Shown here: one piece after another, positions 19,584 to 38,338 of the stretch
Position numbering within the stretch: the first letter of the stretch is position 1
Layout: each line of letters begins with the position of its first letter
Source: a virus
IMG/VR virus record: IMGVR_UViG_3300033143_003083
Location: 13,173-77,172 of that record
Strand: one strand, 5' to 3'
DNA: 64,000 nucleotides
Program-made: the position numbers and the translations under genes
The notes under the pieces: generated by a model
The model's database searches: none
Told to the model about the DNA's origin: nothing
The model's input: only the letters and a program-made list of their open reading frames with translations

Positions 19584-20042
19584 TTACCTTTCCTCACAAC
19601 TTGGATGACCATATCGACTAAAGAATCTTAATGGTCGCATAAATTTACCTTTGACAAAAAATCCCCAGTTCTGAATCTTCCGTCCACAGAACAAGAGTGT
19701 AATCGTACCATGCTTCGGGTTCCCCACATAATGTGTATGATCTGCCTTACGGTATCTCACTGAACCAGTTGGCAGCAGTTCACAGTGTATGCCACCGTAT
19801 TCGCCTATTGATGCCACATCAGTGTAACCACCCCACAAAACGACTGTCAGGAAGTTAAACGCATGGTTGTGCATGTAACGCTTATCATCAGACCGATACC
19901 ACTGATGTATTCTTATTGAGAAGAAGTAAAAGTTAAATACCCATCTTCTCATATAGGGACATTCTTTATTCCCTAACTTTTCATTCCATCTGATACCAAA
20001 TGGCTTGATTCGTTTCTTGTCTGTATCAGCAGGATTAGACAT
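19584..20042 (-). CDS. Cupin-like protein
   Basis: IH...SDD.R..HNH.FNF...L.GGY...H...WGF. Confidence 0.6.
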   Translation of the reverse strand: MSNPADTDKKRIKPFGIRWNEKLGNKECPYMRRWVFNFYFFSIRIHQWYRSDDKRYMHNHAFNFLTVVLWGGYTDVASIGEYGGIHCELLPTGSVRYRKADHTHYVGNPKHGTITLLFCGRKIQNWGFFVKGKFMRPLRFFSRYGHPSCEER

Positions 20043-20045
20043 GAT

Positions 20046-20189
20046 TTATTTCTTACGTTTCTTAAAATACAGACCAGTAAGATAACCAGCAATGCCGATC
20101 ACTATCATCAACACAACAAACAAATCTGTTGCCATACTGAAATCAATACCGAAAATTGTTTTACCTATTTCTGTTTTACTTTCCATCAT
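20046..20189 (-). CDS. Small membrane protein
   Basis: GAGG RBS, one TM, basic tail; start trimmed out of tRNA-like element. Confidence 0.55.
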   Translation of the reverse strand: MMESKTEIGKTIFGIDFSMATDLFVVLMIVIGIAGYLTGLYFKKRKK

Positions 20190-20206
20190 ACTTTCCTCTT
20201 TAAATT

Positions 20207-20331
20207 TGGTCGCGGGGGGTCGCATCGAACAACCAACCTTCCTCATGTTAAACTCAGGTACACGTCTGCACTAACAGTACTAGCAACCGTCTGAGTCCTC
20301 AAGGACGCTCTGCCAATTGAGCTACCCCGCG
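20207..20331 (-). ncRNA. tRNA-like RNA with 49-nt structured insert in anticodon arm
   Basis: Acceptor CGCGGGG/CCCCGCG-A-CCA, D arm GCTC/GAGC, T arm GGTTG-TTCGATG-CGACC; anticodon stem TCCTT/GAGGA closes 56 nt. Confidence 0.8.
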
Positions 20332-20350
20332 TTATCAATAGTGTAACACA

Positions 20351-20725
20351 TCAATCAGAATTTTGCCACATCATCATATCACGTATAACCGTAATGTTGT
20401 TTGGATTATGTCGGTAATCTTCAGGATGCATAATGAAATACAACCATGCAGGTTCATCTACATCAACCAATGAAATTTCTTTACGTTCATAGAAACTACC
20501 ATTACTTTCAATCAAATCAAGTGTGGCTAATACATTATCATTAACTTCATATACTTCACCAAAGATATGTCCGGTGTCTATAGATTCAACCACAGCAGGA
20601 AAAGCACCCAATGAAAACATATGATACTTTTCTCTGGTGATAGTTTTTACAATCAGCTTACTATCATACAAATGATGATGATTAGGAAATCCCTTCATCA
20701 AAGAACCATATACAAAAATTTTCAT
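20351..20725 (-). CDS. Gamma-glutamylcyclotransferase (AIG2-like)
   Basis: IFVYGSL..GF.NH...GEVYEV...LD.IE...YER. Confidence 0.88.
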   Translation of the reverse strand: MKIFVYGSLMKGFPNHHHLYDSKLIVKTITREKYHMFSLGAFPAVVESIDTGHIFGEVYEVNDNVLATLDLIESNGSFYERKEISLVDVDEPAWLYFIMHPEDYRHNPNNITVIRDMMMWQNSD

Positions 20726-20726
20726 A

Positions 20727-21119
20727 TCATAACTCCACGAATGCTTGGTATTCTTCACTGAAGAAGTGTTGATGGTTTCTTACAATAACAGATCCAAGAC
20801 TGTACAAGTTAATCAGAAATTCAGTCATATCATCTTCTTTCAATCTACTCTGTGAATAACCTATTCTTTGATTAAATTCTATGCTATGACCAAAACGAGT
20901 TTTTATATAATTAGCTAAACAGAATTCTGATAACTCTTTAAACAGGGGTCTGTTATCAGCATATGTAATAGTCTGTGATATCACCACATACATTAAAGTT
21001 CTGAAACCATAATCATCACTATAACTTAAACGCTTGTGAAGTTTTTCAAACAAATCTTTGCTGCCATGCTTATCAGCCAGAACAATTATTTGTTTGATTT
21101 CTAATTCAATGAATGGCAT
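20727..21119 (-). CDS. Hypothetical protein, ends FVEL
   Basis: ORF, coupled. Confidence 0.6.
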   Translation of the reverse strand: MPFIELEIKQIIVLADKHGSKDLFEKLHKRLSYSDDYGFRTLMYVVISQTITYADNRPLFKELSEFCLANYIKTRFGHSIEFNQRIGYSQSRLKEDDMTEFLINLYSLGSVIVRNHQHFFSEEYQAFVEL

Positions 21120-34729: not shown

Positions 34730-34978
34730 TTATAACTTGTCGAATTCCAGCATTTGTTCACCAAGTTCTGTCAAGGTAAAATCTATCCTTGTTCCATCCA
34801 CTCTTTCTGTTATATCTGTTATTTTTATCCAACCACTAGTATCAAACATTTGCATCCATATTGCAATATATGATCCGAGATATAATGAATATGGGTTCCC
34901 TTCTGGTTTTATTTTATGCAGATCGCATATTCTGGCGAATGTTTTTACTTCGCTGAAGCTGACATTTTTTTGTCTCAT
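34730..34978 (-). CDS. Small paralog family B
   Basis: SGWI...LTELG..MLEFDKL. Confidence 0.75.
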   Translation of the reverse strand: MRQKNVSFSEVKTFARICDLHKIKPEGNPYSLYLGSYIAIWMQMFDTSGWIKITDITERVDGTRIDFTLTELGEQMLEFDKL

Positions 34979-36225
34979 TAGTCAATCTTCATGAACTCAG
35001 GGATATTATCAATTGAAACTTTGCCAAGTCCGATGTCGTGTTCTACAATCCATCGTGTGCCATCTTTATTAGGGTGGAACGTGATATCATCACTGTTGTA
35101 TTCATGCCCTACATGCACGTGTACGTCCTCCTGAACGTGCTTAAAGATGTCAGTTAACTTATCAGGATGATCCATACTTTCATAGATAACCCCATTCAGG
35201 TCACGCTTAGACATCTTCTGTCCGGTGGCAACGCCTGATGTGACCCCAGCATGAACAAAATAGTGCAGACCATTAGATTTTTCAACCATCAGGTAAGGAT
35301 GTGAAGTTTCATAATAGTTGACGAATCTCAAACAGTAATGATCCATATCATCAGGATTCAATGAATAGAATTCAGCAATCGTTTTGTCTAAACCATGTGC
35401 AACACTCATTCCATATTTGGCATCATGACCTTCCGTCCAATAAAATGTATTATACTTATAGTCTGCTTCATCAGCATTCCACTTTTTCAACCAGCGATAG
35501 AACTTATTGTCGTGGTTACTGATGACGTTATCCATCTTGCCATCGGCAATCAAATCAAAAACTAGATTGAAAGTTTTGTATGATGATTCACCCCTGTCAA
35601 CGATGTCACCCAGACTAATGAATTTTACATTGTCATCATCTTTATACATTTCAACATATCGTTCAAGCACACGATACTCCCCATGCAGATCTGGAATCAC
35701 CACATAAGAATATTGTGAGTCGAGCGTATGTGCATCAGAATATTTTTCGTAATTGATATAAACACCGTCATCAGCGTTTAAATTGTACACAGTGTATTCA
35801 TCAGGAATCGTTTGGTTACTGATACGCTCAACCTGTCGTTTGTAAATGTTCTTGTACTTCCAACGATGTGCCAGACGTTCTTCTGTGAACTCAGATGAAA
35901 GTAATTCAGGGAACACAATGGCAACCAACGGTCTGTTATATTTCTTGGCAATAACCCTTGTCTGATCCAGAACATTCTGATTACCAGTAGAATCCAATAC
36001 AGTAAGGATACCGGCCTTTGCCCTTGCTTCAATTGTTGCATAGAAAATTTCAAATGTGGCAGAGTTGTAATCTTGATTTTCAAAATCACCAGACAACTGT
36101 TCACGAATGAAATCACTTTCAACAACATGGTGTTTTGCAAAATGGTGTTTTGCAAACGTAGACTTACCTGTTGCCATTGCCCCAATGAATACAATCAATG
36201 CATCTTGTTCAATTTTAATTTTCAT
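34978..36225 (-). CDS. Polynucleotide kinase-phosphatase
   Basis: GAMATGKSTFA P-loop; DLHG, LGDIVDRG, SNHD, VHAG metallophosphoesterase. Confidence 0.85.
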   Translation of the reverse strand: MKIKIEQDALIVFIGAMATGKSTFAKHHFAKHHVVESDFIREQLSGDFENQDYNSATFEIFYATIEARAKAGILTVLDSTGNQNVLDQTRVIAKKYNRPLVAIVFPELLSSEFTEERLAHRWKYKNIYKRQVERISNQTIPDEYTVYNLNADDGVYINYEKYSDAHTLDSQYSYVVIPDLHGEYRVLERYVEMYKDDDNVKFISLGDIVDRGESSYKTFNLVFDLIADGKMDNVISNHDNKFYRWLKKWNADEADYKYNTFYWTEGHDAKYGMSVAHGLDKTIAEFYSLNPDDMDHYCLRFVNYYETSHPYLMVEKSNGLHYFVHAGVTSGVATGQKMSKRDLNGVIYESMDHPDKLTDIFKHVQEDVHVHVGHEYNSDDITFHPNKDGTRWIVEHDIGLGKVSIDNIPEFMKID

Positions 36226-37092: not shown

Positions 37093-37235
37093 AGTTCAAT
37101 GTTACGCTCACATAACATATGCATCAACACGAAATAATTAGACCATGCACCACGCTGTGCTAATTTCCCTAATTCCTTTTCAACACTTCGTAAGAAATTC
37201 TTTTTATCTATTTCATTGGCATCACTAGTATTCAT
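37089..37235 (-). CDS. 48-aa ORF (not in track), ends NIEL
   Basis: Hand translation; ATGA overlaps on both sides. Confidence 0.55.
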   Translation of the reverse strand: MNTSDANEIDKKNFLRSVEKELGKLAQRGAWSNYFVLMHMLCERNIEL

Positions 37236-38338
37236 TCATCTTGCTCCCCTATAAACATTTCAAAATGTTTTTTGGCAAATGCTTTGTAGTCATTTACTTT
37301 ACCAGTATACATGTTCATGTACAACCCCATAAGACCATCATCCAAGTCTCTTGCCTTAATCGCATAATCTTTGCGGGTAAGATGCTTATTGGTTTCATGA
37401 TACAACTCAACCGTTGCAATCATATGGTTGAATATAGGATTTACCAGTGCAATCATATCATTGATGATCTTGACTGCAACCTTATCTTCTTCGAACATTA
37501 CAATGATGTCATCAATTTCTTCACCGATAATTGCCCTGAACAATCTCTTGGGGGAATTGATTGAGTCCTTTGCTCTGTGTCGTGCCAAATACCAATCAGT
37601 CTTAATCTTAATCATCTGATCATCATCAAGTCGCAGGACATAACCTTCTATACCATTTATCTGAGGAATCTGATCAACATATCGTCCAATGTCTACTATG
37701 CCACTGATACAATCCACCACAGCATACTTTTGTATCACCGATGGATAAAGATCATGAGGCATGTACTCCCCAGTGAAGTTGTTCCTGACGTTCAGCACAA
37801 CAAGACCATCATCTTCATATCCTAATACAATACGATTGTTCGGTGATGTCCATTCAAAATTAACTGTCCAACCCTGCAACCCTAATATATAAGACTCACC
37901 ACGTAACCTCTTATGATCTTCTTCTGCTAACCATTTCATAGCAGCAACTGCCTGATCAGAATCCAGACTACCTTTGGTCTTGAGTCTTACATCATTCATA
38001 TGTAAATAAGTTGAGATTAAGCTACCATCTTCCTTAACCATACAATGAGTTATTTTTGAAAAATCCACATTCTCGGTGAATGGGTTTTCTTTGTAATTGA
38101 AAAACTTAGTCATTGGTCGTGACGCAATATCAACGACATACCCATCACCATGAACTTCAAACATGATACCCCTACATTCAAGCGCAGAAGGTAACAAGAA
38201 ATCTGAATAAGAACATAGTCGATAATTGAAGATACGAAAAATCGTACCCATCAGTACGACATCTTTAAAGAAAAATGATTCTGAACTTTCAACCAGTGCC
38301 ATTAAGTCTGCGTAAATTTCAGTAAAATGTTTACTCAT
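37232..38338 (-). CDS. rnlA: RNA ligase 1 (T4 Rnl1-like)
   Basis: ECRG, KFFN, KEDGSL, FE..SP.NRIV, EGYV, KIKT.WY. Confidence 0.93.
   Translation of the reverse strand: MSKHFTEIYADLMALVESSESFFFKDVVLMGTIFRIFNYRLCSYSDFLLPSALECRGIMFEVHGDGYVVDIASRPMTKFFNYKENPFTENVDFSKITHCMVKEDGSLISTYLHMNDVRLKTKGSLDSDQAVAAMKWLAEEDHKRLRGESYILGLQGWTVNFEWTSPNNRIVLGYEDDGLVVLNVRNNFTGEYMPHDLYPSVIQKYAVVDCISGIVDIGRYVDQIPQINGIEGYVLRLDDDQMIKIKTDWYLARHRAKDSINSPKRLFRAIIGEEIDDIIVMFEEDKVAVKIINDMIALVNPIFNHMIATVELYHETNKHLTRKDYAIKARDLDDGLMGLYMNMYTGKVNDYKAFAKKHFEMFIGEQDE

What the first reader, a model, noticed from the sequence alone, without database searches (positions are those of the whole stretch)
20207..20331. tRNA-like RNA with a 49-nt structured insertion at the anticodon loop
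Seen: intact acceptor stem with CCA, D arm and T arm. The anticodon stem (TCCTT/GAGGA) encloses 56 nt that can fold as GACTCAG/CTGAGTT plus ACG/CGT and TGC/GCA stems. This is far too short for a group I intron. The last 7 nt (TT-AAC-AT) would make a canonical-looking loop if the rest were excised. Known: the window encodes Pnkp and Rnl1, which heal and seal anticodon-loop breaks. Inference: either a protein-spliced tRNA intron, which is unusual for a bacterial virus, or a tRNA mimic/decoy for anticodon nucleases, synthetases or ribosomes.
Basis: partly seen in the sequence, partly recalled or inferred. Interest (0 to 1): 0.72.

Follow-up and report, generated by a model that had tools for sequence, protein, structure and literature searches.

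The report
Phage valine-tRNA look-alike beside cupin
This 125-base RNA gene looks like a valine tRNA whose decoding loop is blocked by a folded 49-base insert; it belongs to a widespread phage family of such look-alikes that sit just before one small metal-enzyme (cupin) gene, found in no paper I searched, and it most likely works unspliced.

Summary
On the minus strand at 20331-20207 lies a 125-nt RNA gene with a full tRNA cloverleaf, A73-CCA, and 56 nt between the anticodon-stem strands. Standard tRNA finders miss it; ARAGORN in intron mode calls tRNA-Val(AAC) with a 49-nt intron.

The insert is a three-way junction. It is conserved with compensatory changes in two other T4-like phages, Paraglaciecola phage GD1 and one IMG/VR phage.

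No single cutting rule gives a normal 7-nt loop with U33 in all three. No BHB motif, EndA gene, group I core or known ribozyme is present.

The gene just downstream (19584-20042) encodes a cupin-fold protein. In 62 of 79 IMG/VR loci holding a homologue, a tRNA or tRNA-like gene lies within 1.1 kb upstream on the same strand.

Thirty-nine distinct members share C1:G72 and A73. Where the anticodon stem could be parsed, an NAC triplet usually precedes its 3' strand. Inserts range from 0 to about 148 nt, and insert-free members mostly have abnormal loops.

Best reading (about 0.6): an unspliced valine-tRNA look-alike that works with the cupin. A protein-spliced tRNA-Val remains possible (about 0.2).

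The scan noted this family before on other DNA. I found no paper on it.

The parts
20207..20331 (-). tRNA-Val-like RNA gene, 125 nt. It has a full cloverleaf, a C1:G72 first pair and A73-CCA, with 56 nt between the anticodon-stem strands.
   Evidence: Sequence. ARAGORN intron mode calls Val(AAC) plus 49 nt. Model R1 scores 120 bits. Covariation.
20301..20305 (-). Anticodon-stem 5' strand UCCUU. It pairs with 20240-20244.
   Evidence: Two pairs changed on both sides among the three homologues (helix 3).
20240..20244 (-). Anticodon-stem 3' strand GAGGA.
   Evidence: helix 3.
20298..20300 (-). 5' side of the internal loop: GAG here, GAA in GD1, UUA in the third phage.
   Evidence: Alignments.
20251..20297 (-). 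Three-way-junction insert. P1 is GACUCAG/CUGAGUU. P2 is ACGGU-[UGCUAGU]-ACUGU. P3 is GUGCA-[GACG]-UGUAC.
   Evidence: Suboptimal fold shared with GD1. Pairs changed on both sides: 3 in P1, 2 in P2, 1 in P3. The insert-only model R2 finds it only in GD1 and G034 among the 50 records searched.
20245..20250 (-). 3' side of the internal loop, UAACAU. It holds the valine-type A35-C36 (NAC) directly before the 3' strand of the stem.
   Evidence: AACAU, GACAA and AACAU in the three homologues. NAC, mostly as NACA(U/A), recurs in the family members whose anticodon stem could be parsed.
20046..20189 (-). Small ORF of 47 aa, probably a membrane peptide, lying between the RNA and the cupin gene. A Shine-Dalgarno-like AAGAGGAAAGU lies right after the CCA.
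   Evidence: Only a weak Pfam DUF4731 hit. It is not conserved in GD1.
19584..20042 (-). Cupin-fold protein of 152 aa (P0001), the conserved partner gene of the RNA family. Its start lies 3 bases after the stop of the small ORF.
   Evidence: 58% identical to GD1 gp194. PHROG 4786. 133 homologues. AlphaFold model pLDDT 90. Cupin hits in the PDB. A tRNA or tRNA-like gene lies upstream in 62 of 79 loci.
20351..20758 (-). Upstream gene encoding a GGACT/AIG2-like gamma-glutamyl cyclotransferase. It ends 19 nt before the RNA, and no promoter-like site was found between them.
   Evidence: Pfam PF06094, E = 6e-24. Promoter and terminator scan.
37232..38338 (-). Rnl1-type RNA ligase with the tRNA-specificity C-terminal domain. 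This is context, not shown to act on the RNA.
   Evidence: PF09511 plus PF20819.
34978..36225 (-). Polynucleotide kinase plus metallophosphoesterase, a Pnkp-like end-healing enzyme. This is context.
   Evidence: AAA_33 plus Metallophos. No HAD_PNKP domain in the contig.

Best explanation
The gene encodes a stable, unspliced valine-tRNA look-alike that works together with the cupin-fold metalloprotein encoded just downstream.

Shown:
- The RNA keeps everything needed to fold as an L-shaped tRNA: U8, A14, G18G19, the T-loop UUCGA and 7 + 5 bp of stacked helices.
- It keeps an acceptor end with A73-CCA and the A35-C36 pair that, with A73, defines valine identity.
- The place of the decoding loop is filled by a conserved 47-nt three-way junction.
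- The gene sits in a minus-strand gene string of GGACT, RNA, small ORF and cupin, with no terminator-like site found in the scanned stretch 20000-20600.

Inferred:
- It is released from the transcript by RNase P and 3' trimming.
- It is recognised, and probably charged with valine, by the host ValRS through A73 and the exposed NAC.
- It cannot decode on the ribosome.
- It serves as substrate, carrier or cofactor for the cupin enzyme, which has a conserved histidine cluster (H46, H58, H60, H102, H104) and many invariant arginines.

The 49-nt insert is this lineage's version of a variable expansion domain seen throughout the family.
For: 1. The body and the insert are both under selection. Across three phages 97% of cells pair and 9 pairs changed on both sides (0 of 500 shuffles reached this; slid controls gave 0-1). 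The flanks are not alignable, since the BLAST hit is limited to the RNA.
2. The cupin gene follows the RNA in all three phages carrying this insert type. G004 and G005 also have a tRNA-like RNA with a long insert upstream of the cupin homologue.
3. In 79 IMG/VR loci fetched by the cupin alone, 62 have a tRNA or tRNA-like gene on the same strand within 1.1 kb upstream, and 49 of these are distinct. Model R1 adds more in loci that ARAGORN missed.
4. Thirty-nine distinct members, counting the three homologues, share C1:G72 plus A73. Only 9 of 153 ordinary tRNAs in five related phages do, and 8 of those 9 are tRNA-Pro.
5. In the members whose anticodon stem could be parsed, NAC, mostly as NACA(U/A), sits directly before the 3' anticodon-stem strand. 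A35, C36 and A73 are the valine identity set (PMC9976931).
6. Inserts range from 0 to about 148 nt. Most insert-free members have loops of 6, 8, 9 or 10-12 nt, or lack U33: L320 AGAACAU, L332 AUACAU, L329 8 nt, L307 9 nt. Only L334 is near-canonical. That is not what decoding tRNAs look like.
7. No single cut rule yields U33 in the three close homologues (analysis).
8. The protein is a confident cupin fold: pLDDT 90, Foldseek probability 1.0 to metal cupins and thiol dioxygenases. Its histidines and arginines are invariant.
Against: Nothing here shows expression, RNA size, aminoacylation or any contact between the RNA and the cupin. The link rests on gene order alone.

In the window and in GD1, the last 7 nt before the stem read as perfect valine loops (UUAACAU, UUGACAA). 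In the third phage, a UU on the 5' side would restore one. This could be a trace of selection for a spliced decoding tRNA.

The two changes between the window and GD1 in these 7 nt fall on the wobble base and on position 38, which keeps valine.

In GD1 and the third phage the RNA lies between Rnl1 and Pnkp genes, within about 0.6-4 kb.

The cupin's chemistry is unknown, and many cupin loci sit in tRNA-rich regions, which inflates simple adjacency.
Confidence: 0.6

Rival explanations
1. It is a true tRNA-Val gene with a 49-nt intron. An unidentified endonuclease cuts on both sides of the insert, and the phage Pnkp-like enzyme and Rnl1 heal and seal the anticodon loop to give a decoding tRNA-Val(AAC).
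For: ARAGORN intron mode gives clean Val cloverleaves with canonical UU-NAC-AN loops in the window and in GD1. The window encodes Rnl1 with the tRNA-specific C domain and a kinase-phosphoesterase. In GD1 and G034 the RNA lies between Rnl1 and Pnkp. No other tRNA-Val was called in GD1 or in the 77-kb contig. Related jumbo phages carry A34 tRNAs such as Leu(AAG). Short unexplained introns in phage tRNAs have a published precedent (PMC6784885).
Against: - A canonical loop needs a cut at 31/32 in two phages but at 33/34 in the third (otherwise G33). The 3' cut differs by one base relative to P1 between the window and GD1.
- There is no BHB motif, and no EndA in the complete GD1 genome or in five other records.
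- No known ribozyme or group I match.
- An RNase P/Z-type cut at the ends of P1 gives GA at positions 32-33 or 8-nt loops.
- Most insert-free members of the wider family have abnormal loops.
- Rnl1 and Pnkp are common T4-like genes and lie 15-17 kb away in the window.
Confidence: 0.2
2. It is a decoy or sponge that works without the cupin. The uncleavable tRNA-shaped RNA would soak up a host tRNA-targeting defence nuclease, or bind ValRS or other tRNA-binding proteins, to protect or retune translation during infection.
For: The tRNA body and valine identity bases are kept while the normal anticodon-loop geometry, the usual target of anticodon nucleases, is replaced. The phages carry RNA-repair genes, which points to pressure from tRNA-cutting defences.
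Against: This does not explain the strict gene order with the cupin across dozens of lineages. It also does not explain the Pro-type C1:G72 end shared by the family. No nuclease that targets tRNA-Val is linked here.
Confidence: 0.1
3. It is a cis-acting leader for the downstream operon. A tRNA-shaped punctuation or sensor element would be cut by RNase P, or bound by ValRS, to set the 5' end, the stability or the translation of the small-ORF and cupin mRNA.
For: The gap to the cupin gene is only -20 to 25 nt in many loci, for example 4 nt in L320 and L328. In the window a Shine-Dalgarno-like sequence follows the CCA directly. No terminator-like site lies between the RNA and the ORFs.
Against: In other loci the gap is 0.3-1 kb. 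G004 and G005 have strong sigma-70-like promoters just upstream of the RNA. The encoded CCA and the conserved valine identity bases are not needed for mere punctuation.
Confidence: 0.06
4. The insert is a small self-cleaving ribozyme or a degenerate mobile element, or the gene is a decaying tRNA pseudogene.
For: GD1 and G034 carry CUGACGAG, which resembles the hammerhead box. The insert size is in the range of small ribozymes.
Against: The window has CAGACGUG at that place, which breaks two invariant hammerhead bases. That stretch forms the covarying P3 hairpin. No ribozyme family matches at E <= 10. The insert model finds no second copy in the 50 phage records searched, so there is no sign of mobility. 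Compensatory changes in the cloverleaf and insert stems argue against decay.
Confidence: 0.03

Closest known systems
Valine-accepting tRNA-like structures (TLS-Val) of plant and insect RNA viruses, e.g. TYMV (PMC7749636, PMC9976931)
   Same: A viral RNA that mimics tRNA-Val. It keeps A35/C36-type anticodon bases and a CCA end, and it is not used for decoding.
   Different: TLS-Val is the 3' end of an RNA genome and has a pseudoknotted acceptor arm. The RNA here is a free-standing gene of a DNA phage with a true cloverleaf, a Pro-type C1:G72 end, an expansion domain inside the anticodon loop and a dedicated cupin neighbour. Valylation is not shown here.
'Enigmatic' introns in tRNA genes of Lak megaphages (Devoto et al. 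2019, PMC6784885)
   Same: Short inserts without a group I core in the anticodon loop of phage-encoded tRNA genes, with no known way of being spliced.
   Different: The Lak inserts were reported as introns, with excision points re-evaluated by aligning genes with and without the insert. Here most insert-free relatives have abnormal loops, no consistent excision rule exists, and the RNA travels with a cupin gene.
Phage T4 stable RNAs rnaC and rnaD (species 1 and 2 RNA) in the tRNA gene cluster (AF158101 annotation)
   Same: Small stable RNAs of T4-type phages of unknown function. rnaC has a T arm and an acceptor-like end plus extra long hairpins.
   Different: No sequence likeness by eye. I did not align them or score T4 with the R1 model. 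rnaC lacks a normal D arm, and no cupin neighbour is annotated. Homology is not shown.
Bacterial YrlA (Y RNA-like) tRNA mimics bound by Rsr/Ro60 (cited from my own knowledge; mentioned in PMC7824862)
   Same: A non-coding RNA with a tRNA-like module that works with a dedicated protein partner and is often found near RNA-repair genes, including in phages.
   Different: In YrlA the RNA ends lie in the Ro-binding stem and the acceptor stem is closed by a loop, which is a permuted topology. The partner is a TROVE protein, not a cupin. No Rfam match here.
Group I introns in bacterial tRNA anticodon loops (tRNA-Leu(UAA), tRNA-fMet; PMC3984707)
   Same: They interrupt the anticodon loop of a tRNA gene in bacteria and phages.
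   Different: From my own knowledge they are 200 nt or longer and have a catalytic core. The insert here is 47-50 nt with no Rfam intron match.

Membership tests
Canonical decoding tRNA-Val | Cloverleaf with conserved tertiary bases: U8, A14, G18G19, T-loop UUCRA | tested here: met
   Read from the sequence. All four stems pair in three homologues.
Canonical decoding tRNA-Val | 7-nt anticodon loop with U33, recognised by tRNA models | tested here: not met
   56 nt lie between the stem strands. RF00005 and default ARAGORN do not call it. A canonical loop appears only after a hypothetical excision whose position differs between homologues.
Canonical decoding tRNA-Val | Valine identity bases A35, C36 and A73 (PMC9976931) | tested here: met
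   AAC, GAC and AAC plus A73 in the three homologues. A73 is shared by all 39 family members counted, and NAC precedes the stem in the members that could be parsed. The minor determinant G20 is C in the window.
Archaeal/eukaryal protein-spliced tRNA intron (BHB type) | Bulge-helix-bulge motif at the two splice sites | tested here: not met
   By hand on the sequence: there is no 4-bp helix flanked by two 3-nt bulges in either register around 31/32 or the 3' site.
Archaeal/eukaryal protein-spliced tRNA intron (BHB type) | EndA/Sen-type splicing endonuclease encoded | tested here: not met
   PF01974 is absent from the contig, the complete GD1 genome, G034, G002, G003 and G005. The controls were detected. 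A host enzyme cannot be excluded.
Group I intron | Catalytic core, length of 200 nt or more, Rfam Intron_gpI match | tested here: not met
   The insert is 47-50 nt, and no match was found at E <= 10.
Small self-cleaving ribozymes (hammerhead, twister, pistol, hatchet, HDV-like) | Match to the family model and conserved core bases | tested here: not met
   No Rfam match at E <= 10. The CUGANGA-like box of GD1 and G034 is CAGACGU in the window and lies in a covarying hairpin.
tRNA-shaped mini-introns cut by RNase P and RNase Z (a lead from earlier scan notes) | Insert ends coincide with the 5' end of an acceptor-like helix and a discriminator base, and the product has a canonical loop | tested here: not met
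   P1 is 6-7 bp and starts with G in all three. Cuts at its ends would leave GA-GAC-AU or GA-AAC-AA, or 8-nt loops. The tail after P1 is 2, 1 and 2 nt (analysis).
Phage valine-tRNA look-alike plus cupin module (family defined here and in earlier scan notes) | Pro-type acceptor end: C1:G72 with A73 | tested here: met
   Window: CGCGGGG...CCCCGCG-A-CCA. Shared by 39 distinct family members, against 9 of 153 ordinary phage tRNAs.
Phage valine-tRNA look-alike plus cupin module (family defined here and in earlier scan notes) | NAC directly 5' of the 3' anticodon-stem strand, with a variable expansion or abnormal loop on its 5' side | tested here: met
   Window...UAACAU|GAGGA with a 47-nt junction upstream. 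In the family, inserts range from 0 to about 148 nt.
Phage valine-tRNA look-alike plus cupin module (family defined here and in earlier scan notes) | Cupin-fold protein gene (PHROG 4786) downstream on the same strand | tested here: met
   Window 19584-20042, 165 nt after the RNA. A tRNA or tRNA-like gene lies upstream of the cupin in 62 of 79 loci, with further cases found by the CM.
Phage valine-tRNA look-alike plus cupin module (family defined here and in earlier scan notes) | RNA and cupin interact, or the RNA is valylated | not testable with these tools
   No tool for RNA-protein complexes was available, and no RNA run holds the stretch.
Viral TLS-Val | 3'-terminal element of an RNA genome with a pseudoknotted acceptor arm | tested here: not met
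   It is a free-standing gene in a DNA phage with a normal 7-bp acceptor stem.

The most novel reading that the evidence does not exclude
The RNA is a dedicated amino-acid carrier. Host ValRS loads valine onto a tRNA look-alike that the ribosome cannot use. The cupin metalloenzyme then oxidises or otherwise transforms the tethered valine, or a base of the RNA. That would be a tRNA-borne analogue of carrier-protein-bound amino-acid tailoring, run by large phages during infection.
Probability: 0.15. Interest if true: 0.9.

Novelty: new variant of a known kind. Interest (0 to 1): 0.7.

Why it matters
If this reading is right, many large phages carry an RNA-enzyme pair found in no paper I searched. 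The RNA is a tRNA mimic that keeps the marks for valine loading but is barred from decoding. The enzyme is a small metalloprotein of unknown chemistry.

That would add a new use of tRNA mimicry in DNA viruses. It would also give a function to a widespread protein family currently annotated as 'cysteine dioxygenase'.

It also warns that 'intron-containing tRNA' calls in phage genomes can be something else.

The window's subfamily is the most compact version at 125-127 nt. It occurs in a cultured phage with a known host, Paraglaciecola phage GD1 on strain IceBac 372, so the question can be tested directly at the bench.

Tried and rejected
**Homologue searches that found little or nothing**
- Exact-pattern scans of IMG/VR for the insert core or the acceptor ends and of JGI metagenomes found only chance matches, plus the one extra phage (3300037320, contigs _000070 and _000105).
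- INPHARED blastn gave only GD1.
- Model R1 over 50 Rnl1-bearing phage records found one full homologue, ordinary tRNAs, and two other 104-nt insert-bearing genes.
- The insert-only model R2 found no further copy.
- No intron-free orthologue of this tRNA was found that would fix the insertion point.

**Expression data**
- Sequencing runs: no RNA holder is listed, and there is one small-share DNA run.

**Tools**
I used the search for related loci instead.

**Readings rejected**
- Hammerhead: the core is not conserved.
- HDV-like: no P1 partner for the first bases.
- K-turn or C/D-box guide: no C box and no partner proteins. The SNORD96 and U30 matches upstream are far below threshold and lie in coding sequence.
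- RNase III staggered cut: the geometry does not fit.
- Mini-ORF in the insert: not conserved.
- CUAG as a family-wide loop motif: 10 of 34 members have it, against about 10 expected.

**The cupin protein**
- No Pfam or NCBIfam family and no sequence match in the PDB.
- The ESM Atlas gave only phage hypothetical clusters, with CDO-like clusters as a weak lead.

**Literature**
- Searches found no paper on this RNA-cupin pair.

Full report
**1. What is there**

The feature lies on the minus strand, window 20331..20207, and is 125 nt long. It reads:
- CGCGGGG (acceptor), UA, GCUC-AAUUGGCA-GAGC (D arm), G;
- UCCUU (anticodon stem, 5' strand), then 56 nt, then GAGGA (anticodon stem, 3' strand);
- AGGUU (variable loop), GGUUG-UUCGAUG-CGACC (T arm), CCCCGCG (acceptor), A73, CCA.

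Default ARAGORN and Rfam's tRNA model do not report it. A permissive Rfam scan of the 351 nt around it gave only two sub-threshold snoRNA matches in the neighbouring coding sequence.

ARAGORN in intron mode calls tRNA-Val(AAC) with a 49-nt intron at 31/32. In that mode it made no other call in the 77-kb contig or in a 150-kb relative, so the call is not noise.

**2. Homologues and structure of the insert**

A blastn search of cultured phages found one hit, confined to the RNA. It is an unannotated stretch of Paraglaciecola Antarctic GD virus 1 (GD1), a T4-like phage.

Fetching loci around Rnl1 homologues gave a third copy, in IMG/VR 3300037320 (called G034/L184 here).

Pattern scans of IMG/VR and of JGI metagenomes found nothing more, so this insert type is rare.

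The three RNAs are 71-74% identical. Folding and comparison show that the insert is a three-way junction:
- P1 is 6-7 bp: GACUCAG/CUGAGUU in the window.
- P2 is a hairpin with a 7-nt loop, U(G/U)CUAG(U/A).
- P3 is a hairpin with a GACG loop.

On a model-based alignment, 97% of cells pair. Nine pairs changed on both sides: 3 in P1, 2 in P2, 1 in P3, 2 in the anticodon stem and 1 in the T stem. No shuffle out of 500 reached this, and slid controls gave 0-1. The structure was derived from these sequences, which favours it somewhat. Still, the compensatory changes are plain in the raw alignment.

Both the tRNA body and the insert are therefore under selection. This is not a decayed gene.

**3. Is it an intron?**

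Several points speak for splicing:
- The last 7 nt before the 3' stem strand read UUAACAU in the window and UUGACAA in GD1, which are perfect valine loops.
- The window encodes Rnl1 with its tRNA-specific C domain and a kinase-metallophosphoesterase.
- In GD1 and G034 the RNA lies between Rnl1 and Pnkp genes.
- Short unexplained tRNA introns have been reported in Lak megaphages (PMC6784885).

More points speak against it:
- In G034 the same 7 nt read UGAACAU, with G33. A canonical loop there needs the UU that lies on the 5' side, which means a junction at 33/34 instead of 31/32.
- Between the window and GD1, the 3' junction shifts by one base relative to P1.
- I tabulated every split of 7 loop bases between the two sides. 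No single rule gives U33 in all three.
- A rule tied to the ends of P1, which is what RNase P/Z-type cutting would follow (a lead from earlier scan notes), leaves GA at positions 32-33 or 8-nt loops.
- There is no bulge-helix-bulge motif.
- No EndA homologue was found in the contig, in the complete GD1 genome or in four other relatives, while the controls were detected.
- No ribozyme or group I match was found. The hammerhead-like CUGACGAG of two members is CAGACGUG in the window and sits in a covarying hairpin.
- The insert-only model found no second copy in the 50 phage records searched, so the insert does not behave as a mobile element.

**4. The turning point: the neighbour gene**

I compared the GD1 genes around the RNA with the other genomes. 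Only one gene besides Rnl1 is shared with the window's contig, and it is the gene immediately downstream of the RNA. This is GD1 gp194 (annotated 'cysteine dioxygenase'), which is 58% identical to window 19584-20042 and 91% identical to the G034 homologue.

In the window a 47-aa ORF lies between the two. The cupin start follows that ORF's stop by 3 bases.

Two jumbo relatives, G004 and G005, also have a tRNA-like RNA upstream of their homologue. Each has a C-G first pair, ACCA, and a long insert behind a strong promoter.

The protein has the following properties:
- No Pfam or NCBIfam family.
- It belongs to PHROG 4786.
- It has 133 homologues in metagenomes, many on contigs of 100-380 kb.
- Invariant residues include H46, H58, H60, H102, H104 and several arginines.
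- Its AlphaFold model is confident (pLDDT 90) and matches metal-binding cupins, among them thiol and ergothioneine dioxygenases.

**5. A large RNA family defined by that neighbour**

I fetched 79 IMG/VR loci using the cupin alone and ran ARAGORN on them.
- 62 have a tRNA or tRNA-like gene on the same strand within 1.1 kb upstream, often only -20 to 25 nt away. Forty-nine of these are distinct.
- Model R1 found further members where ARAGORN had failed.
- Thirty-nine distinct members, counting the window, GD1 and G034, share a 7-bp acceptor stem that begins with C1:G72 and is followed by A73, with free covariation at the other six pairs.
- Among 153 ordinary tRNAs of five related phages, only 9 have that end, and 8 of those are tRNA-Pro.
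- Where the anticodon stem could be parsed, the members show NAC (UAC, AAC, GAC or CAC), mostly as NACA(U/A), directly before the 3' strand of the anticodon stem.
- A35, C36 and A73 are the main valine identity elements (PMC9976931).

On the 5' side of NAC the family is free. Inserts run from none to about 148 nt, and two members carry theirs in the D loop. Most insert-free members have loops of 6, 8, 9 or 10-12 nt, or a 7-nt loop without U33 (L320 AGAACAU). Only L334 is near-canonical.

The base at the '33' place is U, G or A across the family. That is not the pattern of a decoding tRNA with or without an intron. It is the pattern of a tRNA look-alike that must keep its upper half, its 3' end and the valine marks, and may carry any expansion in the loop.

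The window's 49-nt junction is the most compact expansion seen here. Its CUAG loop motif is not family-wide.

**6. Most likely mechanism**

Shown:
- A conserved tRNA fold and a conserved insert fold.
- Valine identity bases, a Pro-type end and an encoded CCA.
- A fixed gene order with a cupin.
- No terminator-like site and no promoter-like site around the RNA in the window, which points to co-transcription with its neighbours.

Inferred:
- RNase P and 3' trimming release the RNA.
- Host ValRS binds it and probably charges it.
- The ribosome cannot use it.
- The cupin acts on it or with it.

I put this at about 0.6. The spliced tRNA-Val reading keeps about 0.2, because of the neat UU-NAC-AN strings in two of the three phages and the nearby repair genes. 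A cupin-independent decoy, a cis-acting leader, and a ribozyme or pseudogene share the rest.

**7. Comparison with the known, and novelty**

It works like the valine-accepting tRNA-like structures of RNA viruses and like protein-partnered tRNA mimics such as YrlA. It fails the defining features of each: genome 3' end and pseudoknot for TLS-Val, permuted topology and Ro partner for YrlA.

It resembles the Lak 'enigmatic introns' in form only.

T4's own stable RNAs rnaC and rnaD are a loose analogue. I saw no sequence likeness by eye, but I did not align them.

Literature searches found no paper on a phage tRNA-like RNA paired with a cupin.

Earlier notes of this scan describe the same family on other genomes. 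I reached the cupin link independently before reading them, and my tests agree with them.

**8. Limits**

- No expression data could be had.
- The link between RNA and protein rests on gene order.
- The automated parsing of anticodon stems in long-insert members is rough.
- Some loci are tRNA-rich, so plain adjacency overstates the link. The C1:G72/A73 and NAC signature is what makes it specific.

Noticed in passing
L207:1501-1604 (-) = G002:C1:47175-47278; also G002:C1:41282-41399 (-): Two further tRNA-like genes with anticodon-loop inserts, in a jumbo relative whose Rnl1 is 45% identical to the window's. One has a 27-nt insert that forms a 14-bp hairpin burying a UUUUAAG loop. The other is Lys(UUU)-like, with a 32-nt hairpin after CUUUUA and a long variable arm. 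These are a different insert type from the window's. Earlier scan notes describe 27-nt hairpin introns elsewhere.
   Followed up: partly
L221:1501-1604 (-) = G003:C1:26464-26567: A 104-nt tRNA gene with a 29-nt insert. It reads as Gly(UCC) if the insert is cut at 36/37, or as Val(AAC) if cut at 33/34. Its acceptor is Val-like (GGGUGGU...A73). G003 has 52 standard tRNAs but no tRNA-Val in the 183 kb held.
   Followed up: partly
G003:C1:37023-37151 (-) and G003:C1:44379-44491 (-): Two paralogous long tRNA-like RNAs, 75% identical over 114 nt. Their acceptor stems are fully covarying (AGUCAGA/UCUGACU versus GGAGUUU/AAACUCC) and about 75 nt lie between the D and T arms. Function unknown.
   Followed up: no
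G002-G005 (whole records): The jumbo T4-like relatives carry 30-53 tRNA genes. G003 and G005 also carry a tmRNA gene, and G003, G004 and G005 carry tRNA(CUA) amber-suppressor-type genes. Many class I tRNAs in these genomes are 84-92 nt long and have extra variable arms.
   Followed up: no
window 34978-36225 (-): The end-healing enzyme next to Rnl1 is a kinase (AAA_33) fused to a calcineurin-like metallophosphoesterase, like bacterial Clostridium-type Pnkp. It is not the HAD-phosphatase Pnkp of T4, GD1 and G034.
   Followed up: partly
window 20274-20285 (-); GD1 L001:3050-3061; L184:13492-13503: The 3' part of the P2 loop and stem is a 6-base palindrome in all three phages: AGUACU in the window and GD1, AGAUCU in G034. 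The swap of UA to AU keeps the self-complementarity. CUAG in the loop is also palindromic. This could allow loop-loop dimers or mark a protein site. It was not tested.
   Followed up: no
window 20351-20758 (-): A GGACT/AIG2-like gamma-glutamyl cyclotransferase gene ends 19 nt before the RNA. It is not part of the conserved module, being absent at that place in GD1 and G034.
   Followed up: partly
G005:C1:15600-16330 (-) and G004:C1:145300-146070 (-): In both jumbo relatives the tRNA-like RNA has a near-consensus TTGACA-N17-TATAAT promoter just upstream. It is followed by 0.5-0.7 kb before the cupin gene, which is mostly non-coding in G005. That stretch may hold further structured RNA.
   Followed up: no
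L310:2390-2562 and L333:2513-2684: Two family members carry their roughly 80-nt expansion in the D loop instead of the anticodon loop. Both have 8-nt loops, AUUUACAU and AUUUACUU. The expansion site is therefore not fixed within the family.
   Followed up: no
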